Position numbers and translations under genes: made by a program
Assembly (NCBI GenBank): GCA_965231075.1
Contig: OZ246412.1
Span: forward strand, 14,224 to 78,223
Direction: 5' to 3'
From: an uncultured Candidatus Saccharibacteria bacterium
Lineage (GTDB): Bacteria; Patescibacteriota; Minisyncoccia; RBG-13-40-8-A
DNA length: 64,000 nucleotides
Notes under the pieces: generated by a model
Told to the model about the DNA's origin: nothing
The model's input: only the letters and a program-made list of their open reading frames with translations
Database searches by the model: none
Shown: piece after piece, positions 660 through 59,809 of the stretch
How the letters are laid out: each line of letters opens with the position of its first letter
Numbering within the stretch: position 1 is the stretch's first letter

Positions 660-1059
660 TTATGAAATATTAGAAACTTACGAGGCCGGTTTAGTGCTTT
701 TTGGTTTTGAAGTAAAAGCGATTAAAACCGGCCATGTTAGTTTAACGGGTTCATTTGTGACAACAAAGAACGGAGAGCTTTTTTTGACGAACGCTCTAAT
801 TCCACCTTACCAGCCCCAAAATACGCCAATCGATTATGATCAATCGCGACCGAGAAAACTTTTATTAAATAAATCAGAAATCAACTCTTTAATTGGTAAA
901 TTAAAAGTAAAAGGGTTGACATTAGTGCCAATTCGGTTATATACTAAGAGGAACAGAATAAAGTTGGAATTCGGGGTCGCTAAAGGAAAGAAGAAATCCG
1001 ACAAAAGAGAAGCGATAAAGAAAAGAGATGCAGAAAGAGAGATGCAAAGGGGGCGCTAG
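622..1059 (+). CDS. smpB: SsrA-binding protein SmpB
   Basis: Translation from internal ATG 622 (MKPITQNRRSSYDYEILETYEAGLVL...GSFVTTKNGELFLTNALIPPYQ...) matches SmpB throughout; tmRNA follows immediately. Confidence 0.85.
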   Translation: MKPITQNRRSSYDYEILETYEAGLVLFGFEVKAIKTGHVSLTGSFVTTKNGELFLTNALIPPYQPQNTPIDYDQSRPRKLLLNKSEINSLIGKLKVKGLTLVPIRLYTKRNRIKLEFGVAKGKKKSDKREAIKKRDAEREMQRGR

Positions 1060-1402
1060 GTTTCGATCGAAGATCTTTTTAAAACAAGCAAATCGAGGAT
1101 TCTAGTATCTCGCTAAAATCTAGAAAAAATAAACGCAAATACAAATTTTGCTTTTGCCACAGCTTAATTTAAGTTGAGGCCACTTCGACGGAGATTCTCA
1201 ATAGGCTGTTGAAGTGTTATAGTGCCATAAGGCACTTGAGATAGATATTGCAATGCCCAAGTTGTAATATTGAAAGTAATTGGGTCGGATTATTCAAATT
1301 TTTGTTTGTTTATGATTTGAATAATTAAGTAAACAAACTACATTTGTAGAATTGTTTTAAATTGTTTTCAAGACGCGGGTTCGACTCCCGCCGTCTCCAC
1401 CA
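1049..1402 (+). ncRNA. ssrA: tmRNA (SsrA)
   Basis: 5' GGGGGCG pairs with 3' CGUCUCC (including G-U pairs), followed by ACCA at 1399-1402. T-arm GCGGGTTCGACTCCCGC at 1376-1392. Internal tag reading frame ~1135-1167 gives ANTNFAFATA-stop (Ala/Phe-rich C-terminus typical of tmRNA tags). Lies directly 3' of smpB, overlapping its stop codon. Confidence 0.8.
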
Positions 1403-4927: not shown

Positions 4928-7723
4928 ATGGAAAAAATTTCAGACATAGAGAAGAAAATATTAGAATTTTGGAAAGAAAATAAAATCTTTGAAAAATCCC
5001 TGATGAAGAAACCCTCCTCCACTAAAACTTCGGCGGGCAAGGATTATGTTTTTTATGATGGTCCGCCATTTGCGACAGGAACACCACATTATGGACACAT
5101 TGTGGCGTCTTTAATGAAAGATATGGTGCCACGCTTTTGGACAATGCGTGGTTACCGAGTCGAAAGAAAATGGGGTTGGGATTGCCATGGCTTACCAATA
5201 GAGAATATTGTTGAACAAGAACTGGGTTTAAAAAATAAAAAAGACATCATATCAATTGGCGTTGATAAATTTAATGAAACAGCCAGAAGTAAGGTTTTAA
5301 AATATGTTGATGAATGGAAGAAAGTAATTGAAAGAATGGGTAGGTGGGCGGACATGGACAACGCCTACAAAACCATGGACTTAAATTACATGGAAAGTAT
5401 CTGGTGGGTATTTAAACAATTGTGGGACAAAGAACTTATATATGAAGGATATAAATCAATGCACATTTGCCCGAGATGCGAAACAACTCTTTCGCAATTC
5501 GAGGTCAGTGATAATTACAAAGACGTTAAAGATCTATCGGTAATAGCGAAATTTGAACTCGTAAACGAACCAGGAACCTATGTTCTGGCATGGACGACTA
5601 CCCCCTGGACGTTAATTGGCAATGTTGCATTGGCAATTGGCGAAAAATTGAACTATATTAAAGTCGAACATAATAATGAACTCTATATTTTAGTCGATCA
5701 AAATGTCGATAAAATTTTTAATAATAAAAAACATGAAATTGTTGAAAAAATTGACCCCAAAGACTTGATTGGTAAAAAATACAAATCATTGTTTGATTAT
5801 TATCTTAACGAGGACCTACCAAATAAAGAAAATCTTTATACGATTGTTTCTGCCGATTTTGTGACCACCGAAGATGGTACGGGCGTCGTGCATATTGCCC
5901 CTGCGTTCGGAGAAGAGGATATGAATTTAGGTAAAGAAAAAAAATTATCTTTTATTCAGCACGTTAAAATGAACGGACAAATCACCGATGAGGCCAAAGA
6001 ATTTGCCGGACTAGAAGTTAAACCAAAAAACGATCCCTCTGCCACCGACAGAAAGGTGATTGAATATTTAAAAAATAAAAATTTACTATTTTTAGAAGAA
6101 GAATATGCTCACAGTTATCCTTATTGTTATCGTTGCGATTCTCCACTTCTAAATTATGCTACTTCTTCATTATTCGTAAACGTAACAGAATTAAAAGACA
6201 AGGCACTTAAACATGCCAAGAGGATAAACTGGACGCCAACACACATAAAAGAAGGGAGGTTTGGTAATTGGTTAGAAGGGGCGCGCGATTGGTCAATTTC
6301 GCGTCAAAGATTTTGGGGTTCAGTAATTCCAATTTGGGTTTGTGATAAGTGCAAGAAGAAAGTGGTGGTTGGTTCAATCAAAGAATTGGAAAAATTGAGC
6401 AGTGTGAAAGTCACAGATTTACACAAACATTTTATTGATAAGATAGAATTTTCGTGTAGTTGCGACGGAAGCATGAAACGAGTTCCCGATGTCTTAGATT
6501 GCTGGTTTGAATCTGGCTCAATGCCATACGCTCAAATGCATTATCCGTTTGAAAATAAAGAAAAATTCGAGAAAAATTTTCCCGCCGAATTTATTGCCGA
6601 AGGAGTTGATCAGACCCGTGCCTGGTTTTACTATATGCATATTTTGTCGACCGCGGTTAAAAACAGCGAAGCATTCAAAAATGTAATTGTGAATGGAATG
6701 GTTTTAGCGGAAGATGGCAAAAAAATGTCGAAACATCTAAACAACTATCCCGACCCGATGGAGGTTTTTGAAAAACACGGGGCTGATGCCGTACGATATT
6801 ACCTAGCCACATCGCCAGTGGTGAAAGCAGATGATTTGTGTTTTTCAGAAAAAGGAGTCGACGAAGTCGTTAAAAAAGTTTTACTGATGATTTTAAATAT
6901 TTTGTCTTTCTATAAACTATCCGCAACCGACACAAAAGAAAGCACAAAAAGCGAGGACATATTAGACAAATGGATTATCTCCAAAACAGAATCTTTGAAA
7001 AAAGAAGTAACCAATGGTTATGAAAATTACGATCTAAACAAGGCCACAAAACCAATTTCTGGATTTATTGATGAATTATCGACCTGGTATGTGCGTAGAT
7101 CCAGGGAAAGATTCAAATCTGAAAACAAAGACGAGGCAGTGCAAACATTAAAATATGTATTATTAGAACTATCTAAAGTAATCGCTCCGGTAGTGCCGTT
7201 TATAGCAGAACACGTATATAAAGAAGTGGGAGGCAACCAAAATAGTGTGCACTTAGAAGATTGGCCAAAAGTGAATGAAAAATTAATCGACGAAAAATTG
7301 GAAGAACAGATGGTGCAAGTGCGAGATATTTGTAGTGCGGGATTACAAAAAAGGGCGGAGGCAAATTTAAAAGTTCGACAACCTTTAGCCAAAATCCAAA
7401 TTCCAAATTATAAATTACAAAAAGAATTACTCGACTTAATCAAAGACGAGGTTAATGTAAAAGAGGTTGTAGCAGACCTAAAAGAGGGAGTGGCACTTGA
7501 TACCACTATCACCGAAGAACTCAAAGCAGAGGGCGCTGTGAGGGATTTTGTGCGCACTATTCAATCAAAACGTAAGGAAATGGGTCTGACGCCGAAGGAC
7601 AAGATTCGGGTAATTTATTCAGAGAATAAGGAAATTGTTGAAAAATACACCGATCAAATCAAGAAACAAGTAATTGCTGAAGAAATTATTTTCGGCAACG
7701 AATTCAAAATAGAAAAAATATAG
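4928..7723 (+). CDS. ileS: isoleucyl-tRNA synthetase
   Basis: PHYGHIVASLMKD (HIGH), KMSKHL (KMSKS), editing-domain and zinc-cysteine clusters; 931 aa. Confidence 0.9.
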   Translation: MEKISDIEKKILEFWKENKIFEKSLMKKPSSTKTSAGKDYVFYDGPPFATGTPHYGHIVASLMKDMVPRFWTMRGYRVERKWGWDCHGLPIENIVEQELGLKNKKDIISIGVDKFNETARSKVLKYVDEWKKVIERMGRWADMDNAYKTMDLNYMESIWWVFKQLWDKELIYEGYKSMHICPRCETTLSQFEVSDNYKDVKDLSVIAKFELVNEPGTYVLAWTTTPWTLIGNVALAIGEKLNYIKVEHNNELYILVDQNVDKIFNNKKHEIVEKIDPKDLIGKKYKSLFDYYLNEDLPNKENLYTIVSADFVTTEDGTGVVHIAPAFGEEDMNLGKEKKLSFIQHVKMNGQITDEAKEFAGLEVKPKNDPSATDRKVIEYLKNKNLLFLEEEYAHSYPYCYRCDSPLLNYATSSLFVNVTELKDKALKHAKRINWTPTHIKEGRFGNWLEGARDWSISRQRFWGSVIPIWVCDKCKKKVVVGSIKELEKLSSVKVTDLHKHFIDKIEFSCSCDGSMKRVPDVLDCWFESGSMPYAQMHYPFENKEKFEKNFPAEFIAEGVDQTRAWFYYMHILSTAVKNSEAFKNVIVNGMVLAEDGKKMSKHLNNYPDPMEVFEKHGADAVRYYLATSPVVKADDLCFSEKGVDEVVKKVLLMILNILSFYKLSATDTKESTKSEDILDKWIISKTESLKKEVTNGYENYDLNKATKPISGFIDELSTWYVRRSRERFKSENKDEAVQTLKYVLLELSKVIAPVVPFIAEHVYKEVGGNQNSVHLEDWPKVNEKLIDEKLEEQMVQVRDICSAGLQKRAEANLKVRQPLAKIQIPNYKLQKELLDLIKDEVNVKEVVADLKEGVALDTTITEELKAEGAVRDFVRTIQSKRKEMGLTPKDKIRVIYSENKEIVEKYTDQIKKQVIAEEIIFGNEFKIEKI

Positions 7724-7765: not shown

Positions 7766-7794
7766 TTGACAAATTTTTGTTTTAGGAGTACAAT
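7766..7794 (+). promoter_or_regulatory. sigma70-type promoter: TTGACA - 17 bp - TACAAT
   Basis: Exact -35 and near-consensus -10 with 17-bp spacer, followed by AAGGAG Shine-Dalgarno at 7803 and ATG at 7815. Confidence 0.5.
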
Positions 7795-7814
7795 ATACAA
7801 CAAGGAGAATAAAA

Positions 7815-8279
7815 ATGAGAAAAAATGCGAAGGTGTCTGTTCTTTTCATCGTCATGGTGGTCGTGTTCGCCGGGTGCATACAACCACCTCAAATCGCAGA
7901 AGCCCAGGCCTTAATTGCCGAGCTCATGAAATTGGATGCAGGCACATATGCCCCCAAAGAATTCATGAAGATTCAAGGCGACATGAACAAGGCTATGGAC
8001 GAAGTCATGGCCCAGGACAAGAAATTTTTCAAGAAATATGGCTACGCCAGAGAGGCATTAGACAAAGTAATATATGAAGCCAGAGACCTTAAAACAAAAA
8101 TGCCCGATAAAAAGTATGACTACGAAAAAAACAATTATCGGGGCAACAATGATGAGCGCAAGATCCTCGGGCAAGCTGTTTTGATTCTGCGAAACGGAGA
8201 CACTCGTCTCGAGGAGCTGATTGCCGACATGATAGAAGACGTCATTTCTTATCGCTTCGGAGGGAGCGAGAAGAAATAG
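7815..8279 (+). CDS. predicted lipoprotein, compositionally atypical (GC-rich) gene
   Basis: Signal peptide with lipobox VFAG-C; ~46% GC coding sequence against a ~32% background; own promoter and terminator. Confidence 0.6.
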   Translation: MRKNAKVSVLFIVMVVVFAGCIQPPQIAEAQALIAELMKLDAGTYAPKEFMKIQGDMNKAMDEVMAQDKKFFKKYGYAREALDKVIYEARDLKTKMPDKKYDYEKNNYRGNNDERKILGQAVLILRNGDTRLEELIADMIEDVISYRFGGSEKK

Positions 8280-8298
8280 TCTGAATCAATTTTTCAGT

Positions 8299-8330
8299 GC
8301 CCCGTGCGCTTGCGCGCGGGGCCTTTTTAT
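8299..8330 (+). terminator. GC-rich hairpin terminator
   Basis: GCCCCGTGCGCTTGCGCGCGGGGC hairpin followed by TTTTT. Confidence 0.55.
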
Positions 8331-8358
8331 TTCTCACAAAATACAATATAATAAAACC

Positions 8359-14763: not shown

Positions 14764-15423
14764 ATGGGCAAATTATACATTATTGCAACACCAATAGGAA
14801 ATTTAGACGACATAACTTTAAGATCAATAAATATCTTAAAAGGCGTGGATTTAGTTTTGTGCGAAGATACAAGAGTTACAAAAAAACTACTTGAACATTT
14901 TGAAATTAAAACACCTGTACAAAGTTATCATCAACATAGTGATTCTAAAAAAACCGATTACATTTTAAATTTATTTAAAGAAAATAAAAATATCGCATTA
15001 GTTTCTGATTCGGGAACTCCAGGAATATCAGATCCAGGGAATAAATTGGTGGAAGATGCGCATAGAGAGGGGGTAAAGATTGTGCCGATTCCCGGGCCCA
15101 GTGCGATGATTGCAATTGCGAGCGTTGCGGGGATTTCTATGGACAAATTTGTGTTTATGGGATTTCCGCCACATAAAAAGGGTCGACAGACAATGTTTAA
15201 AGAAATTTCCGAATCTAAATATCCAGTAATAATTTACGAATCAGTGCACAGAATTATAAAAACTCTAAAAGAGTTGCAAACATTACATGATTTTGATATA
15301 GTTGTCGGCAGAGAATTAACCAAAAAATTCGAAACTATCTGCCGTGGCAAAATCTCCGAAGTCATTCCCCAAATCGAACTAAAAGGAGAATTTGTAGTAA
15401 TAATACATAAAGATGAAAAATAA
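14764..15423 (+). CDS. rsmI: 16S rRNA (cytidine1402-2'-O)-methyltransferase
   Basis: LYIIATPIGNLDDITLRSINILKGVDLVLCEDTRVTKKLL (tetrapyrrole-methylase fold, RsmI signature). Confidence 0.85.
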   Translation: MGKLYIIATPIGNLDDITLRSINILKGVDLVLCEDTRVTKKLLEHFEIKTPVQSYHQHSDSKKTDYILNLFKENKNIALVSDSGTPGISDPGNKLVEDAHREGVKIVPIPGPSAMIAIASVAGISMDKFVFMGFPPHKKGRQTMFKEISESKYPVIIYESVHRIIKTLKELQTLHDFDIVVGRELTKKFETICRGKISEVIPQIELKGEFVVIIHKDEK

Positions 15424-16912
15424 ATTTTATATCACAACTACATTGCCATATGTGAATGCTGAGCCACATATTGGATTTGCGCTAGAAATTGTGCAGGCAG
15501 ATGTTATTGCTCGATATCGCGCCCTACAAGGCGACGAGGTGTTTTTTAATACCGGGACCGACGAGCATGGATTGAAAATCTATCAAAAGGCGTTAGAAGA
15601 AAAAAAAGACCCACAAGCATATTGTGATGAGTATGCAGCGAAATTTGATTTATTAAAAACGAAATTAAATCTTTCTTACAATAATTTTATTCGCACCACT
15701 GACAAACATCATATTGAGGCGTGCCAAGAATTCTGGAAAAAATGTGAAAAAAATGGCGATATTTACAAAAAGAATTACAAAACCAAATATTGCGTTGGTT
15801 GTGAATTAGAAAAAACCGATTCCGAATTAGTTGATGGCAAATGCCCGATTCATCCCAATCGCGAACTAGAAATCATCGAAGAAGAAAATTATTTCTTTAA
15901 GTTTTCTAAATACCAGCAACCACTTTTGGATTTTTACGACAAAAATAAAGGTTTTGTTATTCCTGCGCATCGTCAAAAAGAAATTTATAATTTTGTAAAA
16001 AATGGTTTGCAAGATTTTAGTATTTCCCGACTCAAAACAAAAATGCCATGGGGCGTACCCGTACCGGGGGACAGTGACCACATAATGTATGTTTGGTTTG
16101 ATGCCCTTATCAACTATATTTCCTGTCTAGGTTGGCCCAAAGACGAGAAAAAGTTCAAAGAATTCTGGCCGGGACTGCAAGTTGCCGGAAAAGATAATTT
16201 AAGACAACAAACTGCAATGTGGCAAGCCATGCTTTTATCGGCTAAGCTTCCGTTATCGAAACAGGTGTTTATTCATGGATTTATTACTTTAGGTGGACAA
16301 AAAATTAGTAAATCTTCTAGTCCAAGCCCAAGTCCATCGCCATCAAGCGAGGTTTCATTATCAAAGAATATTTTACCAAGTCCAATTGAGTTGGTTGATA
16401 AATACGGCATTGATGCGGTGAGATACTATTTATTGCGCGGAATTCCGTCTTCCGAAGATGGCGATTTTTCTATTGAACGATTTGAAGAATTATACAATTC
16501 TGATCTAGCAAATGGATTAGGAAATTTGGTTGCGAGAGTATTGGGATTAACAGAGAAACATAATCTATTTAAAAGCATTTTTATAAATGATGTCGACGGC
16601 AAATACAAAAGAGACGTGGACAACCTGAAAGCAGCAGTCAGCGATTGCATTAACGGGTTTGGATTTTCGGAATTTTTAGAAATCGTTTGGTCTGGTATTC
16701 GTGTTTTGGGTGACACATACATTGATAGTCAAAAACCATGGGAATTAGCTGGAGAAGATGAGATTAAATTAAAACAAGTTTTAACTAATTTACTTTATTT
16801 AATTTCCGAAATTGCCGAATTAATTACACCGTTTTTACCTGAAACGAGTGAAAAAATAAAAAATCAATTAAAATCCGGTAAATCAGAAATATTGTTTCCC
16901 AGAATTTCATAA
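15413..16912 (+). CDS. metG: methionyl-tRNA synthetase
   Basis: PYVNAEPHIGF (HIGH variant), zinc knuckle CVGCELEKTD...CPIHPN, KISKS (KMSKS) followed by an unusual SSPSPSPSPSSEVS insertion. Confidence 0.9.
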   Translation: MKNKFYITTTLPYVNAEPHIGFALEIVQADVIARYRALQGDEVFFNTGTDEHGLKIYQKALEEKKDPQAYCDEYAAKFDLLKTKLNLSYNNFIRTTDKHHIEACQEFWKKCEKNGDIYKKNYKTKYCVGCELEKTDSELVDGKCPIHPNRELEIIEEENYFFKFSKYQQPLLDFYDKNKGFVIPAHRQKEIYNFVKNGLQDFSISRLKTKMPWGVPVPGDSDHIMYVWFDALINYISCLGWPKDEKKFKEFWPGLQVAGKDNLRQQTAMWQAMLLSAKLPLSKQVFIHGFITLGGQKISKSSSPSPSPSPSSEVSLSKNILPSPIELVDKYGIDAVRYYLLRGIPSSEDGDFSIERFEELYNSDLANGLGNLVARVLGLTEKHNLFKSIFINDVDGKYKRDVDNLKAAVSDCINGFGFSEFLEIVWSGIRVLGDTYIDSQKPWELAGEDEIKLKQVLTNLLYLISEIAELITPFLPETSEKIKNQLKSGKSEILFPRIS

Positions 16913-16923
16913 AAGTTATAACA

Positions 16924-16951
16924 TTGACGTAATAAATTTAATAGTATATAG
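16924..16951 (+). promoter_or_regulatory. sigma70-type promoter: TTGACG - 16 bp - TATAGT
   Basis: Near-consensus hexamers upstream of the GC-rich gene at 17001; AGGGAG Shine-Dalgarno at ~16990. Confidence 0.45.
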
Positions 16952-16978
16952 TAAAATCAGTTCCTTTGGAACTGATTT
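16952..16978. promoter_or_regulatory. perfect 12-3-12 inverted repeat AAAATCAGTTCC-TTT-GGAACTGATTTT at the predicted transcription start (candidate operator, or metG terminator)
   Basis: Perfect palindrome immediately downstream of the -10 element; not followed by a U-tract. Confidence 0.45.
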
Positions 16979-17000
16979 TAAATCTAATAGGGAGTGTGCA

Positions 17001-18026
17001 ATGAAAAAATCAGTTTGTGTCGTTCTTTTTATGTTCATGTTTTTGTCGCTATCTTTTTCGGCGTTCGGCCAGCAGGTCGAATACAAAAAGATCTATCGAC
17101 TCGGCGTGGCTCCGCTGGAAAAAAACGGGGTCAAGACACTGGAAGAGCTCGAAGCGCTCATCGTCAAAAAGATTGTGGTCATCGATCTATTATTGAGCGG
17201 GCGAAAAGAGCTTGTCGAAGAATTCTATCGACAATTTCCCGAGGCAAGGGTCGAAGAGATTTCTTTTGACAAAAATGACCACGTGCGAATTATTTCGATG
17301 TCCTGGGAGAACTGGGACAAGAAGCCCAAGGTAACGGTACCTGTCGAATGGGCTGGAGAAGGAATCGTTGAGGCATATATTTTTAAAATCGATTATATGC
17401 ACATCGGAAAGTCTTATTGGTTCCTGATTCCCAAGAAGTGTGGGAACGTTTCTCTATGGAAGATCGAAGATCTTGAGATTCCGATTAGGAAAATCGAAGA
17501 GAAGCCGGTTGTCGAGTACCCATCTCGGTCAAACCCCGAGATCGAAACGGTTCACAATCCGGAACCCAAGCCCGTTGTCGAGACGTCCAAAGAAAAGGAT
17601 GATACGGATTATTTCGCAGATTTGGCCGGAGGAATTTTCAAAAGCTGCTACAAGGAGTATATTATCCTCCGGGCTGGTTTCGCGAAAAAAATCAGCGAAA
17701 AATTCGAACTGACCTTCTTGGGAGGAATCGGCCTTCCTCTTGATTTCCAAACCGGATATCCCGGAACCGAGGAATGGAAAGTGGTGTTTATGGGCGACAC
17801 AAAGTTGATATACAGACCATCTTCATTCTTTATCGGTGTAGGCGCCGGAATGTCGTCTGCCGTCAAGGCAGGCAATACCAAGCAACTGGAAGGAATTTGC
17901 ACGACAGGAATCAGTTCAGGCAAGATCGATTTATTTGTTGAAGTGCGTCTTCCTATGCAGAAAGACAAGAGCTTCAAGAACAACTACAAGATATTTGCCG
18001 GAATAGGAGTACACTGGGGGCGATGA
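17001..18026 (+). CDS. secreted hypothetical protein, compositionally atypical (GC-rich) gene
   Basis: Signal peptide MKKSVCVVLFMFMFLSLSFSAFGQQ; ~48% GC; flanked by its own promoter and hairpin terminator. Confidence 0.6.
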   Translation: MKKSVCVVLFMFMFLSLSFSAFGQQVEYKKIYRLGVAPLEKNGVKTLEELEALIVKKIVVIDLLLSGRKELVEEFYRQFPEARVEEISFDKNDHVRIISMSWENWDKKPKVTVPVEWAGEGIVEAYIFKIDYMHIGKSYWFLIPKKCGNVSLWKIEDLEIPIRKIEEKPVVEYPSRSNPEIETVHNPEPKPVVETSKEKDDTDYFADLAGGIFKSCYKEYIILRAGFAKKISEKFELTFLGGIGLPLDFQTGYPGTEEWKVVFMGDTKLIYRPSSFFIGVGAGMSSAVKAGNTKQLEGICTTGISSGKIDLFVEVRLPMQKDKSFKNNYKIFAGIGVHWGR

Positions 18027-18040
18027 GCCCCCTTTTTTAT
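18015..18040 (+). terminator. hairpin terminator overlapping the stop codon
   Basis: GGGGGCGATGAGCCCCC followed by TTTTTT. Confidence 0.55.
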
Positions 18041-18067
18041 TCTTTAAAATAGTGATATATTGATTTT

Positions 18068-18865
18068 ATGTTGATCGATACACACGCGCATTTAAATTTT
18101 AAAGATTTTGATGACGATCGAAATGAAATTATTAAAAAATGCCAAGATTTACAAGTTGGCATTATTAATATTGGCGTTAATTATACTGCCTCTAAAGAGG
18201 TGATTGAACTTGCTGAGAAATATAGTAATTGTTGGGCGACGGTTGCCATGCATCCACATGACATTAATGATCCAAGAGATAAAATTGGTTTTGATTACAA
18301 CAAATTTTTGGAACTTGCTAAAAATCCAAAAGTCGTAGGAATTGGTGAATGTGGATTGGATTATCAATTTTGTGAAGACGATTTAACACAACAAAAACAA
18401 CAGCAAGAAATTTTTATACAACATTTAAAATTGGCGCAGGAAGTAAACAAGCCAATCATTATTCACAGTCGTAGATTGTTTCCAGAAATATTAGAGATCA
18501 TTAAAACATTTCAAGCATCAAACACCAGACATTTAGCCGGTGTTCTTCACTGCTATATGGGACGCTGGAGTTATGCGGAAGAATATTTAAAATTAGGTTT
18601 TTATTTAAGTTTTACGGGACTAATAACCTATGCGCGAGATTATGATAAAGTGATTAAAAATTGTCCGTTAGATAAAATTTTAATTGAAACCGATTCACCG
18701 TATTTGACGCCCGACCCCCTGCACAAAAAAGACGAAATTGTCCGCAATACACCATTAAATGTCGAATTAGTTGCTCGAAAAATTGCCGAAATTAAAGGAA
18801 TCAGCCTTGAAGAAGTTGCAAAACAAACCACCCAAAACGCACAAAAGCTATTTAATATAGTATAA
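18068..18865 (+). CDS. tatD: TatD family metal-dependent hydrolase (DNase)
   Basis: MLIDTHAHLNF...GIGECGLDY...HSR... are TatD signature motifs. Confidence 0.85.
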   Translation: MLIDTHAHLNFKDFDDDRNEIIKKCQDLQVGIINIGVNYTASKEVIELAEKYSNCWATVAMHPHDINDPRDKIGFDYNKFLELAKNPKVVGIGECGLDYQFCEDDLTQQKQQQEIFIQHLKLAQEVNKPIIIHSRRLFPEILEIIKTFQASNTRHLAGVLHCYMGRWSYAEEYLKLGFYLSFTGLITYARDYDKVIKNCPLDKILIETDSPYLTPDPLHKKDEIVRNTPLNVELVARKIAEIKGISLEEVAKQTTQNAQKLFNIV

Positions 18866-27458: not shown

Positions 27459-28028
27459 ATGGAAGAGAGTAAACCAAAAATCTCTGGTTTTAAGTACTGG
27501 TTAGATTTCACTTGGGAAATCTTGAAAATTGTTGTAATCTCTTTGGCAATCATTGTGCCAATTAGATATTTTTTAATTCAACCATTTTTTGTTAAAGGAG
27601 CGTCAATGGAACCAACCTATTTAGATGGTGATTATTTGATTATTGATGAAATTAGTTATCGCTTCGAAGCACCGAAAAGAGGAGAGGTGGTTATTTTTAG
27701 ATATCCATTAGACCCGACACAATTTTTTATAAAAAGAGTGATTGGATTGCCGGGAGAGACGGTTAAAATTGAAAATGGAAAAGTAATTATCGAAGAACAA
27801 TCAGGTAACTCGTTTATTTTAGATGAATCAAAATATTTGAACGGAGTTATTACTGCTGGCAACATTGAGACCACGCTTGAAAATGACGAATATTTTGTCT
27901 TGGGAGACAATCGTAATGCCAGTTCGGATTCGCGTCGGTGGGGAGAGGTAAACAAAAAACTTATTATTGGTCGTGCCTGGTTGCGTGCCTGGCCATTTAA
28001 TAGATTAGACACTTTATTAAATAAATAA
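27459..28028 (+). CDS. lepB: signal peptidase I
   Basis: GASMEPTYLDGDYLII (catalytic Ser), RVIGLPGETV, GDNRNASSDSRRWG boxes. Confidence 0.85.
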   Translation: MEESKPKISGFKYWLDFTWEILKIVVISLAIIVPIRYFLIQPFFVKGASMEPTYLDGDYLIIDEISYRFEAPKRGEVVIFRYPLDPTQFFIKRVIGLPGETVKIENGKVIIEEQSGNSFILDESKYLNGVITAGNIETTLENDEYFVLGDNRNASSDSRRWGEVNKKLIIGRAWLRAWPFNRLDTLLNK

Positions 28029-33229: not shown

Positions 33230-33311
33230 TTGATTCAGAAAATTTATTTTGATATAATTAAATCTCACTCAAAAAGTGAGATTTAAAATTCTTTAAAACA
33301 GGGAGGGCATT

Positions 33312-33617
33312 GTGAGAAAGAGAAGCGTCGAAGAGGAAATCAGACTTTTAAAGGGGGATCTTTATAATCGCAAAAGAAAATATCAGGTGTTTTTTCTTCT
33401 TTTGTTTATTCTATATTTGATTGCGCCAATTTTTAAAATCCACGAATTTTTTGGAGAAGAAATTATTACTAACTTCTTCGGAGATAAGCTTTGGGATTAT
33501 TATTTGTCGGGATTCTTAATACTTATTAGCGTTGCGTTGGTGATGATCCCAAGAAAAAAAATTTCCGACAGAAGAGACAAGAAAGTTCTAAAAGATGAGT
33601 ACAAAATTATAGTCTAA
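33312..33617 (+). CDS. hypothetical two-helix membrane protein
   Basis: ORF track (starts at GTG after an AGGGAGGG Shine-Dalgarno); two predicted TM segments. Confidence 0.4.
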   Translation: MRKRSVEEEIRLLKGDLYNRKRKYQVFFLLLFILYLIAPIFKIHEFFGEEIITNFFGDKLWDYYLSGFLILISVALVMIPRKKISDRRDKKVLKDEYKIIV

Positions 33618-39114: not shown

Positions 39115-39143
39115 TTGACAGATAGAGCACTAAATGTTACAAT
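39115..39143 (+). promoter_or_regulatory. sigma70 promoter TTGACA - 17 bp - TACAAT; CTTGCGCAAG palindrome (39152-39161) between the -10 and the SD
   Basis: Exact consensus hexamers; AAGGAG at 39159; ATG at 39172. Confidence 0.45.
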
Positions 39144-39171
39144 TACAATATCTTGCGCAAGGAGAAAAATA

Positions 39172-39546
39172 ATGCCGCAGGTATTCATGATCCTTGGATC
39201 CCAGGTTGTAAAACGCCTGGACCACGAAATCATCAACGAGATCGGAACCACTTTGATCTCATTGGTGGAGCAATTCTTCAAAATCGAGGGCAGAAACGAC
39301 GTGGCGTTTACGGCCGTTTCGGCTATCGCCACGATCAACGAGGCTCCGATTCAAGTTGAAATCCGGTATACTGCCGGCAGGGACGAGTATGGGCAAGGAA
39401 AGCCGTTCGATCCCTCTGAAGAAGAGCAAGAGCTTTTGGCCAGCCTTATTATGGGGGTTGTTCAGGGCTTAACTCTCGGCAAATACAAGGTTTCGGTGTG
39501 GTGCAAGCCATACCACAACTCTGTGTTTAAGGACAAGCCAGTGTAA
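39172..39546 (+). CDS. hypothetical cytoplasmic protein, compositionally atypical (GC-rich)
   Basis: Start taken at ATG 39172 after AAGGAG (the track ORF begins at 39112 inside the promoter); ~50% GC; no signal peptide. Confidence 0.5.
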   Translation: MPQVFMILGSQVVKRLDHEIINEIGTTLISLVEQFFKIEGRNDVAFTAVSAIATINEAPIQVEIRYTAGRDEYGQGKPFDPSEEEQELLASLIMGVVQGLTLGKYKVSVWCKPYHNSVFKDKPV

Positions 39547-39560
39547 ATCAGGGAGTGGCA

Positions 39561-39595
39561 AGGGGTTGGGACGTGTCCCAGCCCCTATTTTATTT
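39561..39595 (+). terminator. GC hairpin terminator
   Basis: AGGGGTTGGGACGTGTCCCAGCCCCT followed by ATTTTATTT. Confidence 0.5.
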
Positions 39596-51085: not shown

Positions 51086-51118
51086 GTGAAAAATACCGGG
51101 TAGCCGGTATTTTTCATT
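51086..51118 (+). terminator. hairpin + U-tract between rpsJ and rplC (terminator or attenuator)
   Basis: GAAAAATACCGG-GTAG-CCGGTATTTTTC. Confidence 0.45.
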
Positions 51119-58704: not shown

Positions 58705-59322
58705 ATGGCAGAAGAAACAAAAGACATACAAACAGAAGAAAAAAAACTAGAGACTGTTGAACCAACAGCCGAAGTTAAGGCCAAAGAAACAAAAAAAGAA
58801 CAATCAAAACCGTTTGGTAGATTTGGCAAGGGAAGTGGAAGAGGCAGTGGCGGAGGAAGGGGCGGGAGAAGACCGGAAAAGGGAAAAGAGGAAAAACCAG
58901 AATTTGAACAAAAACTTTTAGACATTAGAAGAACCGCCAGAATGGTTTCTGGTGGGAGAAGATTTAGTTTTAGAGCGCTAGTTGTAATTGGGAACAAGAA
59001 AGGCAAGGTGGGAGTTGGATTGGCTAAAGGTGCAGACGTTACGATTGCAGTAGAAAAAGCGGTTAATCAAGCCAAAAAGGCATTAATTGAAATCACAATT
59101 ACAGACAATAAATCAATTTCACAAATGATCGAAGCTAAATTTGGCGCAGCCAAAGTAATGTTGAAGCCCGCGCAAAAAGGACAAGGAATTATTGCTGGCG
59201 GGGCTGTGCGCGTGATTTGCTCGTTGGCGGGAATTGAAAATGTGGTATCTAAAATTATCGGTCGCACAACCAACAAATTAAACAATGCCCAGGCAACAAT
59301 TGAGGCACTAAAAAAACTATAA
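58705..59322 (+). CDS. rpsE: 30S ribosomal protein S5 (Gly/Arg-rich N-terminal extension)
   Basis: C-terminal 140 aa canonical S5. Confidence 0.85.
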   Translation: MAEETKDIQTEEKKLETVEPTAEVKAKETKKEQSKPFGRFGKGSGRGSGGGRGGRRPEKGKEEKPEFEQKLLDIRRTARMVSGGRRFSFRALVVIGNKKGKVGVGLAKGADVTIAVEKAVNQAKKALIEITITDNKSISQMIEAKFGAAKVMLKPAQKGQGIIAGGAVRVICSLAGIENVVSKIIGRTTNKLNNAQATIEALKKL

Positions 59323-59323
59323 T

Positions 59324-59809
59324 ATGCAATTACACCAAGTTAAACCCAAAAATATTAATAAAAGCAAAAAACGTGTTGGTCGCGGAGGGAAACGCGGAAC
59401 GTTTTCGGGCAGAGGAGCAAAAGGACAACTAGCACGCGCCGGAAGAAAACTTTATCCAGAAATTAGAGCTTTTGTAAAAAAAATCCCTAAAACCAGAGGG
59501 TACGACTTTAAGTCATTTAAAAACAAGCCAACAGTTATTAATTTGAAGGATTTAAATAAGCATTTTAAAGACGGAGAAATTGTAAGTCCAGAAACATTGA
59601 TACAAAAAGGGTTAATTGTTAAAATAAATAATAGAATGCCAATAGTGAAAATTTTAGGCGATGGCAAATTAGAAAAAAACTTGATAGTGGATAACTGTAA
59701 AATGTCAAAATCAGCAGAGAAAGTTTTGAAAATTAAAGAAGCAACAAAAGAGGTTGAAACAAAAAAACCAATCAAAAAAAACAAAAAGAAGATTATTAAA
59801 AAGAAATAA
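59324..59809 (+). CDS. rplO: 50S ribosomal protein L15 (directly follows S5; no L30 gene)
   Basis: KRVGRGGKRGTFSGRG. Confidence 0.85.
   Translation: MQLHQVKPKNINKSKKRVGRGGKRGTFSGRGAKGQLARAGRKLYPEIRAFVKKIPKTRGYDFKSFKNKPTVINLKDLNKHFKDGEIVSPETLIQKGLIVKINNRMPIVKILGDGKLEKNLIVDNCKMSKSAEKVLKIKEATKEVETKKPIKKNKKKIIKKK

What the first reader, a model, noticed from the sequence alone, without database searches (positions are those of the whole stretch)
16924..18040. Second GC-rich cassette: secreted 341-aa protein with a perfect 12-3-12 palindrome at its transcription start
A TTGACG-16-TATAGT promoter is followed immediately by AAAATCAGTTCC-TTT-GGAACTGATTTT (perfect 27-bp inverted repeat, 16952-16978).
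- The repeat sits where the +1 site would be, the classic position for a repressor operator.
- It lacks a downstream U-tract, so it is not a good intrinsic terminator for metG.
- The gene (17001-18026, ~48% GC, signal peptide MKKSVCVVLFMFMFLSLSFSAFGQQ) ends in a GGGGGCGATGAGCCCCC-TTTTTT terminator that overlaps its stop codon.
- Interpretation: a tightly regulated, possibly foreign, secreted protein gene.
Basis: seen in the sequence. Interest (0 to 1): 0.6.

Follow-up and report, generated by a model that had tools for sequence, protein, structure and literature searches.

The report
Terminator-like hairpin fronting imported barrel-protein gene
The palindrome is most likely not a repressor binding site but a conserved RNA hairpin placed directly after a real promoter, at the front of a 1.15-kb imported gene cassette that encodes a fast-evolving, secreted, outer-membrane-type barrel protein and sits in a variable slot between two housekeeping genes of a small, AT-rich, probably CPR/Patescibacteria genome.

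Summary
TTGACG, a 17-nt spacer and TATAGT are followed at once by a perfect 12-3-12 inverted repeat (16953-16979), an SD, a 341-aa ORF and a strong terminator.

The operator reading fails. In 9 related loci the promoter and the hairpin position are conserved. The loop varies from 3 to 8 nt. Five of 11 stem pairs show compensatory changes, and one locus has a wholly different stem. The half-site occurs nowhere else.

The stem ends in TTT(T), and the full hairpin (-14 kcal/mol) is as stable as the gene's own terminator. The predicted start site lies inside the 5' arm, so the gene's own mRNA keeps only a 6-bp stub (-5.7 kcal/mol). My best reading is a one-way terminator that stops metG read-through and leaves a 5'-terminal stub on the cassette mRNA.

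'Foreign' is supported. Close relatives have metG and tatD overlapping, with an empty site. The same slot holds different GC-rich cargo elsewhere, and the protein's relationships disagree with MetG's.

The protein has a signal peptide, an N-domain with no match among solved structures, a linker and an OmpA-like 8-stranded barrel. Its family ends in a typical outer-membrane signal. That is odd if the host really lacks an outer membrane.

The parts
16906..18067 (+). Whole inserted cassette between the metG stop and the tatD start: promoter, hairpin, SD, gene, terminator and a new tatD promoter.
   Evidence: In empty-site relatives (L135, L138, L139, L143, L144, L148) the metG stop overlaps or abuts the tatD ATG, e.g. 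..TTTCCGAGAATATAATGTTAATTGATAC. Boundaries come from comparing that junction with the window sequence.
16924..16929 (+). -35 hexamer TTGACG.
   Evidence: Scan. TTGAC is conserved in all 8 loci whose sequence reaches this far.
16947..16952 (+). -10 hexamer TATAGT, 17 nt after the -35.
   Evidence: The spacing is 17 nt in all 8 loci. T24 and A25 of the alignment are invariant.
16953..16979 (+). Perfect 12-3-12 inverted repeat AAAATCAGTTCC-TTT-GGAACTGATTTT. It forms an RNA stem-loop flanked by an A-tract and a U-tract. The predicted transcription start (about 16959) lies inside its 5' arm.
   Evidence: Covariation: 97% of cells paired, 5 of 11 pairs with compensatory changes, 0 of 500 shuffles as good. 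The full hairpin is -14.0 kcal/mol; the stub from 16959 is -5.7 kcal/mol.
16990..16994 (+). Shine-Dalgarno GGGAG, 6 nt before the ATG.
   Evidence: Sequence. A GGAG-type motif is present at the same place in all orthologous leaders.
17001..18026 (+). CDS of a 341-aa exported two-domain protein ('X').
   Evidence: Seven proteins in two searches of 5.8 billion (the window's own plus six homologues). 329 representative clusters match in a profile search.
17001..17069 (+). Signal peptide (residues 1-23), with a likely signal peptidase I site after SAFG.
   Evidence: Sequence. Modelled as an N-terminal helix with low pLDDT. The cleavage site is my reading of the A-x-G rule. A signal peptidase I gene is at 27459-28028.
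17076..17480 (+). N-terminal alpha/beta domain (residues about 26-160) with the conserved PKxCGNxSL motif.
   Evidence: AF2 domain model has pLDDT 93.3. No significant match among solved structures; best Foldseek E is 0.4. Conserved motif seen.
17481..17597 (+). Disordered Pro/Glu-rich linker (residues about 161-199).
   Evidence: pLDDT below 50. Longer relatives carry PKD, FlgD_ig or Big domains at this position.
17598..18023 (+). C-terminal 8-stranded beta-barrel (residues about 200-341).
   Evidence: Eight strands in the model. Foldseek hits to OmpA-TM, Ail, NspA, OmpX, OmpW and PagL and to phage-encoded OMP barrels. Strands alternate hydrophobic and Gly/polar residues.
18016..18038 (+). 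Intrinsic terminator GGGGGC-GATGA-GCCCCC plus T6. The stop codon lies in its loop.
   Evidence: -14.4 kcal/mol. GC-rich terminators follow X in all loci.
18053..18061 (+). Extended -10 (TG-A-TATATT) ending 6 nt before the tatD ATG at 18068, with no SD. This predicts a leaderless tatD mRNA.
   Evidence: Sequence. The same TGnTATAnT ends 6-7 nt before the tatD ATG in L131, L132, L133, L137 and L147 (11 nt in L142).

Best explanation
The palindrome acts as RNA, not as a protein-binding DNA site. It is a stem-loop with an A-tract and a U-tract, placed directly against the -10 box of the cassette's own sigma-70-type promoter.

Transcripts reading through from metG contain the whole 12-bp stem followed by UUUU. 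They meet a structure as stable as a bona fide terminator, so metG transcription ends there and the cassette is insulated.

Transcripts started at the cassette promoter begin about 7 nt after the -10, inside the 5' arm. They can form only a 5-7 bp stub at their extreme 5' end. That stub is too weak to terminate. It is of the kind known to protect mRNAs from 5'-end-dependent decay.

The hairpin is one part of a self-contained 1.15-kb cassette: promoter, hairpin, SD, gene, strong terminator and a new leaderless promoter for tatD. The cassette sits in a variable slot between metG and tatD. It carries a secreted, fast-evolving protein with an outer-membrane-type barrel.

**Shown:**
- the structure is conserved and covaries;
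- its register to the promoter is fixed;
- the energetics of the full hairpin and the stub;
- the insertion and the allele mosaicism;
- the fold of the protein.

**Inferred:**
- the transcription start site;
- that termination actually happens;
- that the stub stabilises the mRNA.
For: 1. **Structure over sequence.**
   - Nine leaders align with 97% of stem cells paired.
   - Five of 11 pairs carry compensatory double changes, and 0 of 500 shuffles match this. Slid controls collapse.
   - L131 has GCTCC/GGAGC, L126 has AGG/CCT, L128 has ATG/CAT, and L132 has a completely different stem at the same place.
2. **Loop length** varies over 3, 4, 5, 6 and 8 nt.
3. **Strand.** Four G.U wobbles occur on the sense strand. 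Only one would occur on the antisense strand.
4. **Register.** The stem starts 0-1 nt after the -10 in every locus.
5. **Pairing extends upstream of the predicted start.**
   - Pairing begins at the very first base after the -10, and this also holds in unrelated instances.
   - In the window, TATAAT is followed at once by TAAATCTCACT-CAAAA-AGTGAGATTTA after ftsZ.
   - In L160 and L181 the same arrangement follows metG.
   - Nucleotides upstream of the cassette's own start are therefore kept paired. That only makes sense for RNA coming from upstream.
6. **Energetics.** The full hairpin is -14.0 kcal/mol, against -14.4 for the gene's real terminator. The stub from 16959 is -5.7. All loci show the same pattern.
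7. **U-tract.** TTT(T) follows the GC-containing core of the stem in all loci.
8. **Position.** It lies 41 nt after the metG stop, and there is no other terminator-like structure in between.
Against: - No transcription start or 3' end has been mapped. The start position rests on standard promoter geometry.
- The U-tract is short (3-4 U followed by A). The cassette terminators have 5-7 U.
- L003 and L128 have a separate GC-rich terminator upstream of the promoter yet keep a perfect hairpin. Termination of the upstream gene therefore cannot be its only role.
- L147 and L137 have cargo in the same slot with a promoter but no hairpin, so metG termination there is dispensable.
- The outermost four pairs (AAAT/ATTT) are nearly invariant among the homologous leaders. 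Evidence that they pair comes only from non-homologous instances.
Confidence: 0.5

Rival explanations
1. It is purely a 5'-terminal mRNA-stabilising stem-loop of the ompA, papA or aprE kind. The hairpin exists only to protect the cassette mRNA from 5'-end-dependent RNases and plays no part in ending metG transcription.
For: - The hairpin sits at the predicted 5' end in all loci.
- It is retained where an independent upstream terminator exists, in L003 and L128.
- The unrelated cargo in L142 also has a hairpin starting 6 nt after its -10, and that one has no U-tract.
- The principle is established; see the reference list of PMC3997798 (Emory 1992, Arnold 1998, Hambraeus 2002).
Against: - The stem starts directly after the -10, so 5-6 of its pairs lie upstream of the expected start. 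They would not be in the mRNA, yet they are kept paired, including in non-homologous instances.
- The remaining stub is only -5.7 kcal/mol, z = -1.9.
Confidence: 0.25
2. The palindrome is the operator of a dimeric repressor that blocks RNA polymerase at +1.
For: - It is a perfect palindrome overlapping +1.
- The core AATCAGTTCC is identical in four loci whose proteins are only 37-53% identical to one another.
Against: - Half-site spacing of 3-8 nt is incompatible with a fixed dimer.
- All changes are compensatory, and L132 has an unrelated stem.
- G.U wobbles are strand-specific.
- No regulator gene lies next to it; the flanks are metG and tatD.
- The half-site is absent elsewhere in the window even with 2 mismatches: 20 hits against 14.9 expected, and none is paired. 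It is also absent from about 540 kb of related loci.
Confidence: 0.05
3. It is a translational switch. The 3' arm (GGAACTGATTTT) can pair either with the 5' arm or with codons 2-5 (AAAAAATCAGTT, 17004-17015). The second pairing would hide the start region.
For: - The coding start repeats 10 nt of the 5' arm in the window, L002, L003 and L004.
- With a start 7 nt after the -10, the minimum-energy fold of L002 and L004 flips to this alternative.
Against: - There is no covariation. In L005, L126 and L128 the arms changed but the coding start did not follow.
- The window's own minimum-energy fold keeps the 5' hairpin, and the leader fold is not unusually stable (z = -0.5).
- MKKSV is an ordinary signal-peptide start.
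Confidence: 0.07
4. It is a recombination or mobility site of the cassette, such as an attC-like hairpin or a terminal repeat.
For: - The slot holds exchangeable cargo.
- Hairpins recognised by structure rather than sequence are typical of integron attC sites (my own knowledge).
Against: - No integrase or transposase is in the neighbourhood.
- The hairpin is absent from other cargo types (L137, L147).
- It sits inside the promoter-SD leader, not at a cassette boundary.
- There are no flanking direct repeats.
- L131 pairs an L002-type leader with a different allele class. The breakpoint is therefore downstream of the hairpin.
Confidence: 0.03

Closest known systems
Rho-independent terminators of the bidirectional type (A-tract, stem, loop, stem, U-tract)
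   Same: - A perfect stem at -14 kcal/mol, flanked by complementary A- and U-tracts.
- It lies 41 nt after a co-directional stop codon.
- Its weak Rfam hits are to the last or internal positions of sRNA models, far below threshold. That these positions are terminator stems is my reading.
   Different: - The U-tract is only 3-4 U.
- A promoter is squeezed between the stop codon and the hairpin, so the next gene's start falls inside the 5' arm.
- I do not know this arrangement as a described class; that statement rests on my own knowledge.
5'-terminal stem-loops that stabilise mRNA (E. coli ompA and papA; B. subtilis aprE), cited through the reference list of PMC3997798
   Same: - A hairpin at the very 5' end of the mRNA of an exported envelope protein.
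- Its pairing, not its sequence, is conserved.
   Different: - There is no sequence relationship.
- Here the stem extends upstream of the predicted start.
- No half-life data exist.
Eight-stranded outer-membrane beta-barrels (OmpA transmembrane domain, OmpX, Ail, NspA, OmpW, PagL)
   Same: - Fold match with Foldseek probability 1.0 and TM-score 0.44-0.58 normalised to the target.
- Alternating lipid-facing residues.
- Family members end in G(L/F)R(F/Y)xF, like a BAM beta-signal.
   Different: - No Pfam or NCBIfam match.
- The barrel is C-terminal, behind an N-domain with no solved relative and a linker or Ig domains.
- The window protein ends ..HWGR, two residues past the aromatic.
- The host is probably a monoderm.
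Phage 'morons' (autonomous transcription units inserted between conserved genes); comparison from my own knowledge
   Same: - Own promoter and own terminator.
- Deviant base composition.
- Inserted between two genes that are adjacent in relatives.
- Three such units lie in this window.
   Different: - This is not a phage. There are no PHROG hits and no relatives on IMG/VR contigs.
- The neighbours are housekeeping genes.
Surface-antigen loci swapped by homologous recombination between conserved flanking genes, such as capsule or O-antigen loci; comparison from my own knowledge
   Same: - A fixed slot between conserved genes.
- Deeply diverged allele classes whose relationships disagree with the flanks.
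- Mosaic junctions, as in L131.
- Competence genes (ComEC) are present in the window.
   Different: - This is a single small gene rather than a biosynthetic cluster.
- The recombination mechanism is inferred only.

Membership tests
Intrinsic (Rho-independent) terminator | Stable stem-loop containing G-C pairs. | tested here: met
   A 12-bp perfect stem with 4 G-C pairs at -14.0 kcal/mol, z = -6.5. This equals the gene's own terminator at -14.4.
Intrinsic (Rho-independent) terminator | U-rich tract directly 3' of the stem. | tested here: inconclusive
   TTT(T) is conserved in all 9 leaders but is only 3-4 long and pairs with the 5' A-tract. The consensus scan did not call it.
Intrinsic (Rho-independent) terminator | Lies downstream of a co-directional gene, with transcript 3' ends mapping to it. 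| not testable with these tools
   The position is met: it lies 41 nt after the metG stop. Mapping 3' ends needs Term-seq or metatranscriptomes.
5'-terminal mRNA-stabilising stem-loop (ompA/aprE type) | Stem-loop within 0-2 nt of the mRNA 5' end. | tested here: inconclusive
   Predicted from the promoter geometry. A start 6-8 nt after the -10 gives a stub hairpin with no unpaired 5' nucleotides in most folds. At offsets of 7-8 nt, L002 and L004 fold differently. The start site is not mapped.
5'-terminal mRNA-stabilising stem-loop (ompA/aprE type) | The hairpin lengthens mRNA half-life. | not testable with these tools
   This needs decay measurements with arm and compensatory mutants.
Palindromic operator of a dimeric repressor | Fixed centre-to-centre spacing of the half-sites. 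| tested here: not met
   The spacer is 3, 4, 5, 6 or 8 nt in orthologous loci.
Palindromic operator of a dimeric repressor | Conserved half-site sequence, with further sites or a cognate regulator in the genome. | tested here: not met
   L132 has an unrelated stem. Changes are compensatory. There are no other sites in the window or in related loci. No regulator gene is adjacent. Only 64 kb of the genome was available.
Eight-stranded outer-membrane beta-barrel (OmpA-TM/OmpX-like) | Eight antiparallel strands closing a barrel with a lipid-facing hydrophobic surface. | tested here: met
   The AF2 model has 8 strands of 10-13 residues. Foldseek matches OmpA-TM, Ail, NspA and OmpX. Most of the 8 strands show residue alternation.
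Eight-stranded outer-membrane beta-barrel (OmpA-TM/OmpX-like) | C-terminal beta-signal ending in an aromatic residue. | tested here: inconclusive
   Met in most family members and in allele groups B and C (..GIRITF..RIFF). The window protein ends ..GVHWGR.
Eight-stranded outer-membrane beta-barrel (OmpA-TM/OmpX-like) | Sequence membership in a curated OMP family. | tested here: not met
   No Pfam or NCBIfam hit. No sequence hit to PDB chains.
Eight-stranded outer-membrane beta-barrel (OmpA-TM/OmpX-like) | The host has an outer membrane and BAM machinery. | not testable with these tools
   Only 64 kb is visible. Its content points to a CPR-type monoderm: an LCP protein, split ComEC, DUF11/CARDB surface proteins and no L30 gene. 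No BamA was seen, but the whole genome was not searched.
Moron-like autonomous gene cassette | Own promoter and terminator, inserted between genes adjacent in relatives, with deviant composition. | tested here: met
   
Moron-like autonomous gene cassette | Resides in a phage or prophage. | tested here: not met
   No PHROG hits. No relatives on viral contigs. The neighbours are tRNA synthetases and TatD.
Any Rfam RNA family | Covariance-model score at or above the gathering threshold. | tested here: not met
   Only tmRNA and 2 tRNAs were found in the window. At the site, the best hits score 15.9 and 12.5 bits against thresholds of 100.

The most novel reading that the evidence does not exclude
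The host is a monoderm CPR/Patescibacteria cell with no outer membrane of its own. X would be an outer-membrane-type beta-barrel taken from diderm bacteria. The cell would secrete it and insert it into the outer membrane of the bacterium it lives on, with the new-fold N-domain held on a flexible tether as an anchor or receptor. The arms race with hosts or phages would then explain three things:
- the locus behaves as a hypervariable, recombining cassette slot;
- all alleles stay GC-rich;
- the cassette is transcriptionally insulated by a one-way terminator.
Probability: 0.12. Interest if true: 0.8.

Novelty: new variant of a known kind. Interest (0 to 1): 0.45.

Why it matters
**The hairpin.** If the one-way-terminator reading is right, it shows how extremely compact genomes fit a terminator and the next promoter into about 60 nt without the two interfering. 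A second native example sits after ftsZ in the same window. This would be a general design rule for reading transcription units in uncultivated, streamlined bacteria, and a useful part for synthetic biology.

**The slot.** It gives a concrete, well-bounded example of how small GC-rich accessory genes enter and are swapped in such genomes.

**The protein.** It defines an uncharacterised family of about 330 clusters with an N-domain that has no solved relative. If the host is truly monoderm, an outer-membrane-type barrel there points to a direct tool for contact with a diderm host.

Tried and rejected
- **Genome-collection scan with a loose hairpin pattern.** The organism could therefore not be named. 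The taxonomy rests on gene content.
- **Looking up sample and assembly accessions in the literature.** Nothing was found.
- **Regulon search for the half-site.** No further sites were found.
- **Alternative pairing of the 3' arm with codons 2-5.** It looked attractive in four loci, but there is no covariation in the other allele group.
- **High GC3 as codon bias of a highly expressed gene.** Rejected, because EF-Tu has GC3 0.23 and the ribosomal proteins about 0.3.
- **Phage origin.** No PHROG hits and no relatives on viral contigs.
- **Defence-system library.** Not searched.
- **Function of the N-domain.** There are no Pfam, NCBIfam or PDB sequence hits and no fold match.
- **Third protein-database search with a broad profile.** It returned few members because of the candidate cap. 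Most distant relatives could not be placed in a genomic context.
- **Integron or attC-like site.** Rejected: there is no recombinase, and the hairpin is not at a cassette boundary.
Full report
**1. Observation**

- TTGACG (16924-16929), a 17-nt spacer and TATAGT (16947-16952) score 10 of 12 in the promoter scan.
- Immediately after the -10 comes AAAATCAGTTCC-TTT-GGAACTGATTTT (16953-16979). It extends to 13-3-13.
- Next come GGGAG (16990-16994) and the ATG at 17001.
- The 341-aa ORF ends at 18026. Its stop codon lies in the loop of GGGGGC-GATGA-GCCCCC-T6 (18016-18038).
- Perfect inverted repeats of this size occur at three places in the window. Shuffles give 0.075.
- The gene has 45.4% GC against 35.9% for the rest of the window. 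Its GC3 is 0.54 against about 0.30.
- The statement that there is no U-tract is wrong. The last four bases of the 3' arm are TTTT.

**2. Setting**

The flanks are rsmI, metG (15413-16912), tatD (18068-18865), leuS and fmt.

The window is a one-strand run of housekeeping genes. It contains:
- an LCP (LytR_cpsA_psr) protein;
- a split ComEC;
- giant DUF11, CARDB and PKD surface proteins;
- anaerobic NrdD;
- signal peptidase I;
- a ribosomal operon in which S5 is followed directly by L15, with no L30 gene.

The sequence also lies on a 626-kb contig. One close relative comes from a 0.1-µm groundwater filtrate.

I infer a CPR/Patescibacteria genome at about 80%. This is not proven. Patescibacteria are thought to lack an outer membrane (PMC12102498).

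**3. The gene is an insertion in a variable slot**

Two searches of 5.8 billion proteins returned seven proteins: the window's own plus six homologues. Every one with visible context lies just upstream of tatD or just downstream of metG.

A metagenome scan with MetG gave 80 related loci.
- **Empty sites.** In L135, L138, L139, L143, L144 and L148 (MetG 68-75% identical), the metG stop overlaps or abuts the tatD start, e.g. ..ATATAATGTTAATTGATAC.
- **Occupied by X.** L131, L132, L133 and L147 carry X.
- **Other cargo.** L137 carries only a roughly 60-aa ORF. L147 carries that small ORF plus X. L128 carries a 115-aa membrane protein plus X. L142 carries an unrelated 263-aa GC-rich ORF.

The insert in the window spans about 16906-18067.

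In all occupied loci, the cassette terminator is followed by an extended -10 (TGnTATAnT). In most of them it ends 6-7 nt before the tatD ATG, and there is no SD. This predicts a leaderless tatD mRNA.

**4. Alleles and composition**

- MetG is 80-89% identical among the six loci compared, but X is only 30-58% identical.
- X falls into three allele groups that cut across a rough MetG tree.
- L003 has a MetG only 40% identical to the window's, yet it carries the closest X (53%).
- L131 combines an L002-type leader with an X of another group.

X is therefore either evolving very fast or being exchanged. Most likely both are true.

Most alleles are GC-richer than their genomes: 0.40-0.45 against 0.32-0.37. 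L004 is barely higher, at 0.38 against 0.35.

This is not expression-linked codon bias. EF-Tu has GC3 0.23.

A distant family member lies in a 51%-GC contig. Its neighbours there encode a sigma-54 activator, cytochrome bd and CdhD, which I read as a diderm anaerobe. Gene transfer into Patescibacteria from Omnitrophota, Bacteroidota and Desulfobacterota has been reported (PMC12455944).

Why GC3 stays high in alleles this diverged is not explained by a single old transfer.

**5. The hairpin**

- In eight loci, TTGAC-N, 17 nt and TA-N4 are conserved while the spacer sequence drifts. The stem begins 0-1 nt after the -10.
- On the nine-sequence alignment, the 11-pair helix has 97% of cells paired. 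Five pairs have changes on both sides, and no shuffle out of 500 reaches this. Sliding the partner by one column drops pairing to 54-56%.
- Variants are CAGTTCC/GGAACTG, CAGCTCC/GGAGCTG, AGGTTCC/GGAACCT and ATGTTCC/GGAACAT. In L132 the stem is unrelated: CCTCGC/GCGGGG.
- Loops are 3-8 nt.
- G.U pairs occur four times on the sense strand.
- No Rfam family matches.
- The half-site is not found elsewhere.

These facts exclude a fixed-geometry dimeric operator. They point to sense-strand RNA.

**6. How it most likely works**

The full hairpin folds at -14.0 kcal/mol, the same as the gene's own terminator at -14.4. It is followed by UUUUAAAU.

From the expected start (16959, 7 nt after the -10) only AGUUCC/GGAACU remains, at -5.7 kcal/mol, and it sits at the extreme 5' end.

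Pairing is kept right up to the base after the -10, which is upstream of the cassette's own start. The same arrangement recurs with unrelated sequences:
- **After ftsZ:** TTGATT, 17 nt, TATAAT, then at once TAAATCTCACT-CAAAA-AGTGAGATTTA (33230-33285; -12.3 kcal/mol).
- **After metG in L160 and L181**.

I therefore favour a one-way terminator. RNA coming from the upstream gene sees the full terminator. RNA started at the abutting promoter does not, and it keeps a protective 5' stub. Confidence is 0.5.

The main rival is a pure 5' stabiliser (0.25). L003 and L128 support it, because they keep the hairpin despite a separate upstream terminator. L142 also supports it, because its leader hairpin has no U-tract. 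The paired nucleotides upstream of the start argue against it.

**7. The protein**

- The AF2 model (mean pLDDT 75.8) shows a signal peptide, an alpha/beta N-domain, a disordered linker and eight long strands.
- The barrel matches OmpA-TM, Ail, NspA, OmpX, OmpW and PagL, and also phage-encoded OMP barrels.
- Its strands alternate hydrophobic and Gly/polar residues.
- The N-domain modelled alone reaches pLDDT 93.3 and has no significant PDB fold match.
- A profile search finds 329 representative clusters. Most end in G(L/F)R(F/Y)xF. Longer members carry PKD, FlgD_ig or Big domains in place of the linker.
- None of the members tested (the window protein and ten longer relatives) has a curated family match covering the N-domain or the barrel.

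The function of the N-domain is unknown. My working guess is a tethered surface or envelope binding module under diversifying selection.

**8. Verdict**

The features are real. The promoter, the export signal and the foreign origin are supported. The operator reading is not.

The hairpin is a new variant of known RNA elements, either a terminator or a 5' stem-loop. Its notable feature is the fixed register to the promoter.

The wider context is more interesting than the palindrome itself. That context is a swap-prone cassette slot, three GC-rich autonomous units in one window, and an outer-membrane-type barrel in a probable monoderm.

Noticed in passing
window 7766-8335: A first GC-rich autonomous unit. 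It has TTGACA, 17 nt and TACAAT, then an SD and a 154-aa lipoprotein-like ORF (7815-8279). The ORF has a ..VFAGC lipobox and GC3 of 0.56. A GC-rich terminator follows. There is no significant Pfam hit (one marginal GldM_1st match, below cutoff) and no PHROG hit.
   Followed up: partly
window 39115-39595: A third GC-rich autonomous unit. It has TTGACA, 17 nt and TACAAT, with a CTTGCGCAAG palindrome running into the SD. The 124-aa ORF (39172-39546) has GC3 of about 0.58 and no family hit. A GC-rich terminator follows.
   Followed up: partly
window 33230-33311: A second native case of a promoter abutting a hairpin. Directly after the ftsZ stop come TTGATT, 17 nt (TG-extended) and TATAAT, then at once a perfect 11-5-11 stem-loop (33259-33285, -12.3 kcal/mol), an SD and an ORF without any family (33312-33617).
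   Followed up: partly
window 51087-51116: A perfect 13-4-13 hairpin (TGAAAAATACCGG..CCGGTATTTTTCA) lies between rpsJ and rplC inside the ribosomal-protein cluster. It may be an attenuator or a processing site.
   Followed up: no
window 18053-18070, and L131, L132, L133, L137, L147: tatD has an extended -10 (TGnTATAnT) ending 6-7 nt before its ATG, and no Shine-Dalgarno. This predicts a leaderless mRNA. In empty-site relatives tatD is instead coupled to metG through an overlapping stop and start.
   Followed up: partly
window 58705-59809: The S5 gene is followed 2 nt later by the L15 gene, with no L30 gene between them. Together with the LCP protein, split ComEC and DUF11/CARDB proteins, this fits a CPR/Patescibacteria genome.
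   Followed up: partly
L003 922-1086; L137 about 5014-5200; L147 about 5060-5215: A family of small (about 50-60 aa) proteins recurs as cargo in the same metG|tatD slot, alone or upstream of X. Members share ..EEL.RAHEVALMA.. and ..MELDQIGIG...
   Followed up: partly
L142 2553-3524: An unrelated 263-aa GC-rich ORF without any family occupies the slot. It has its own TTGACA-17-TATAAT promoter, two leader hairpins and a GC-rich terminator.
   Followed up: partly
L181 2297-2560 and L160 about 4940-5200: After metG there is TTGACG, 17 nt and TATATA, followed at once by a 12-4-12 hairpin. About 200 nt without a convincing ORF then follow. This may be a small RNA gene.
   Followed up: no
X orthologues in L002-L005, L126, L128, L131, L132, L147: Nine of the ten X genes start with GTG or TTG. 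Only the window's copy uses ATG.
   Followed up: no
window 1049-1402: A tmRNA gene (tag peptide ANTNFAFATA) begins within the last bases of smpB (568-1059).
   Followed up: no
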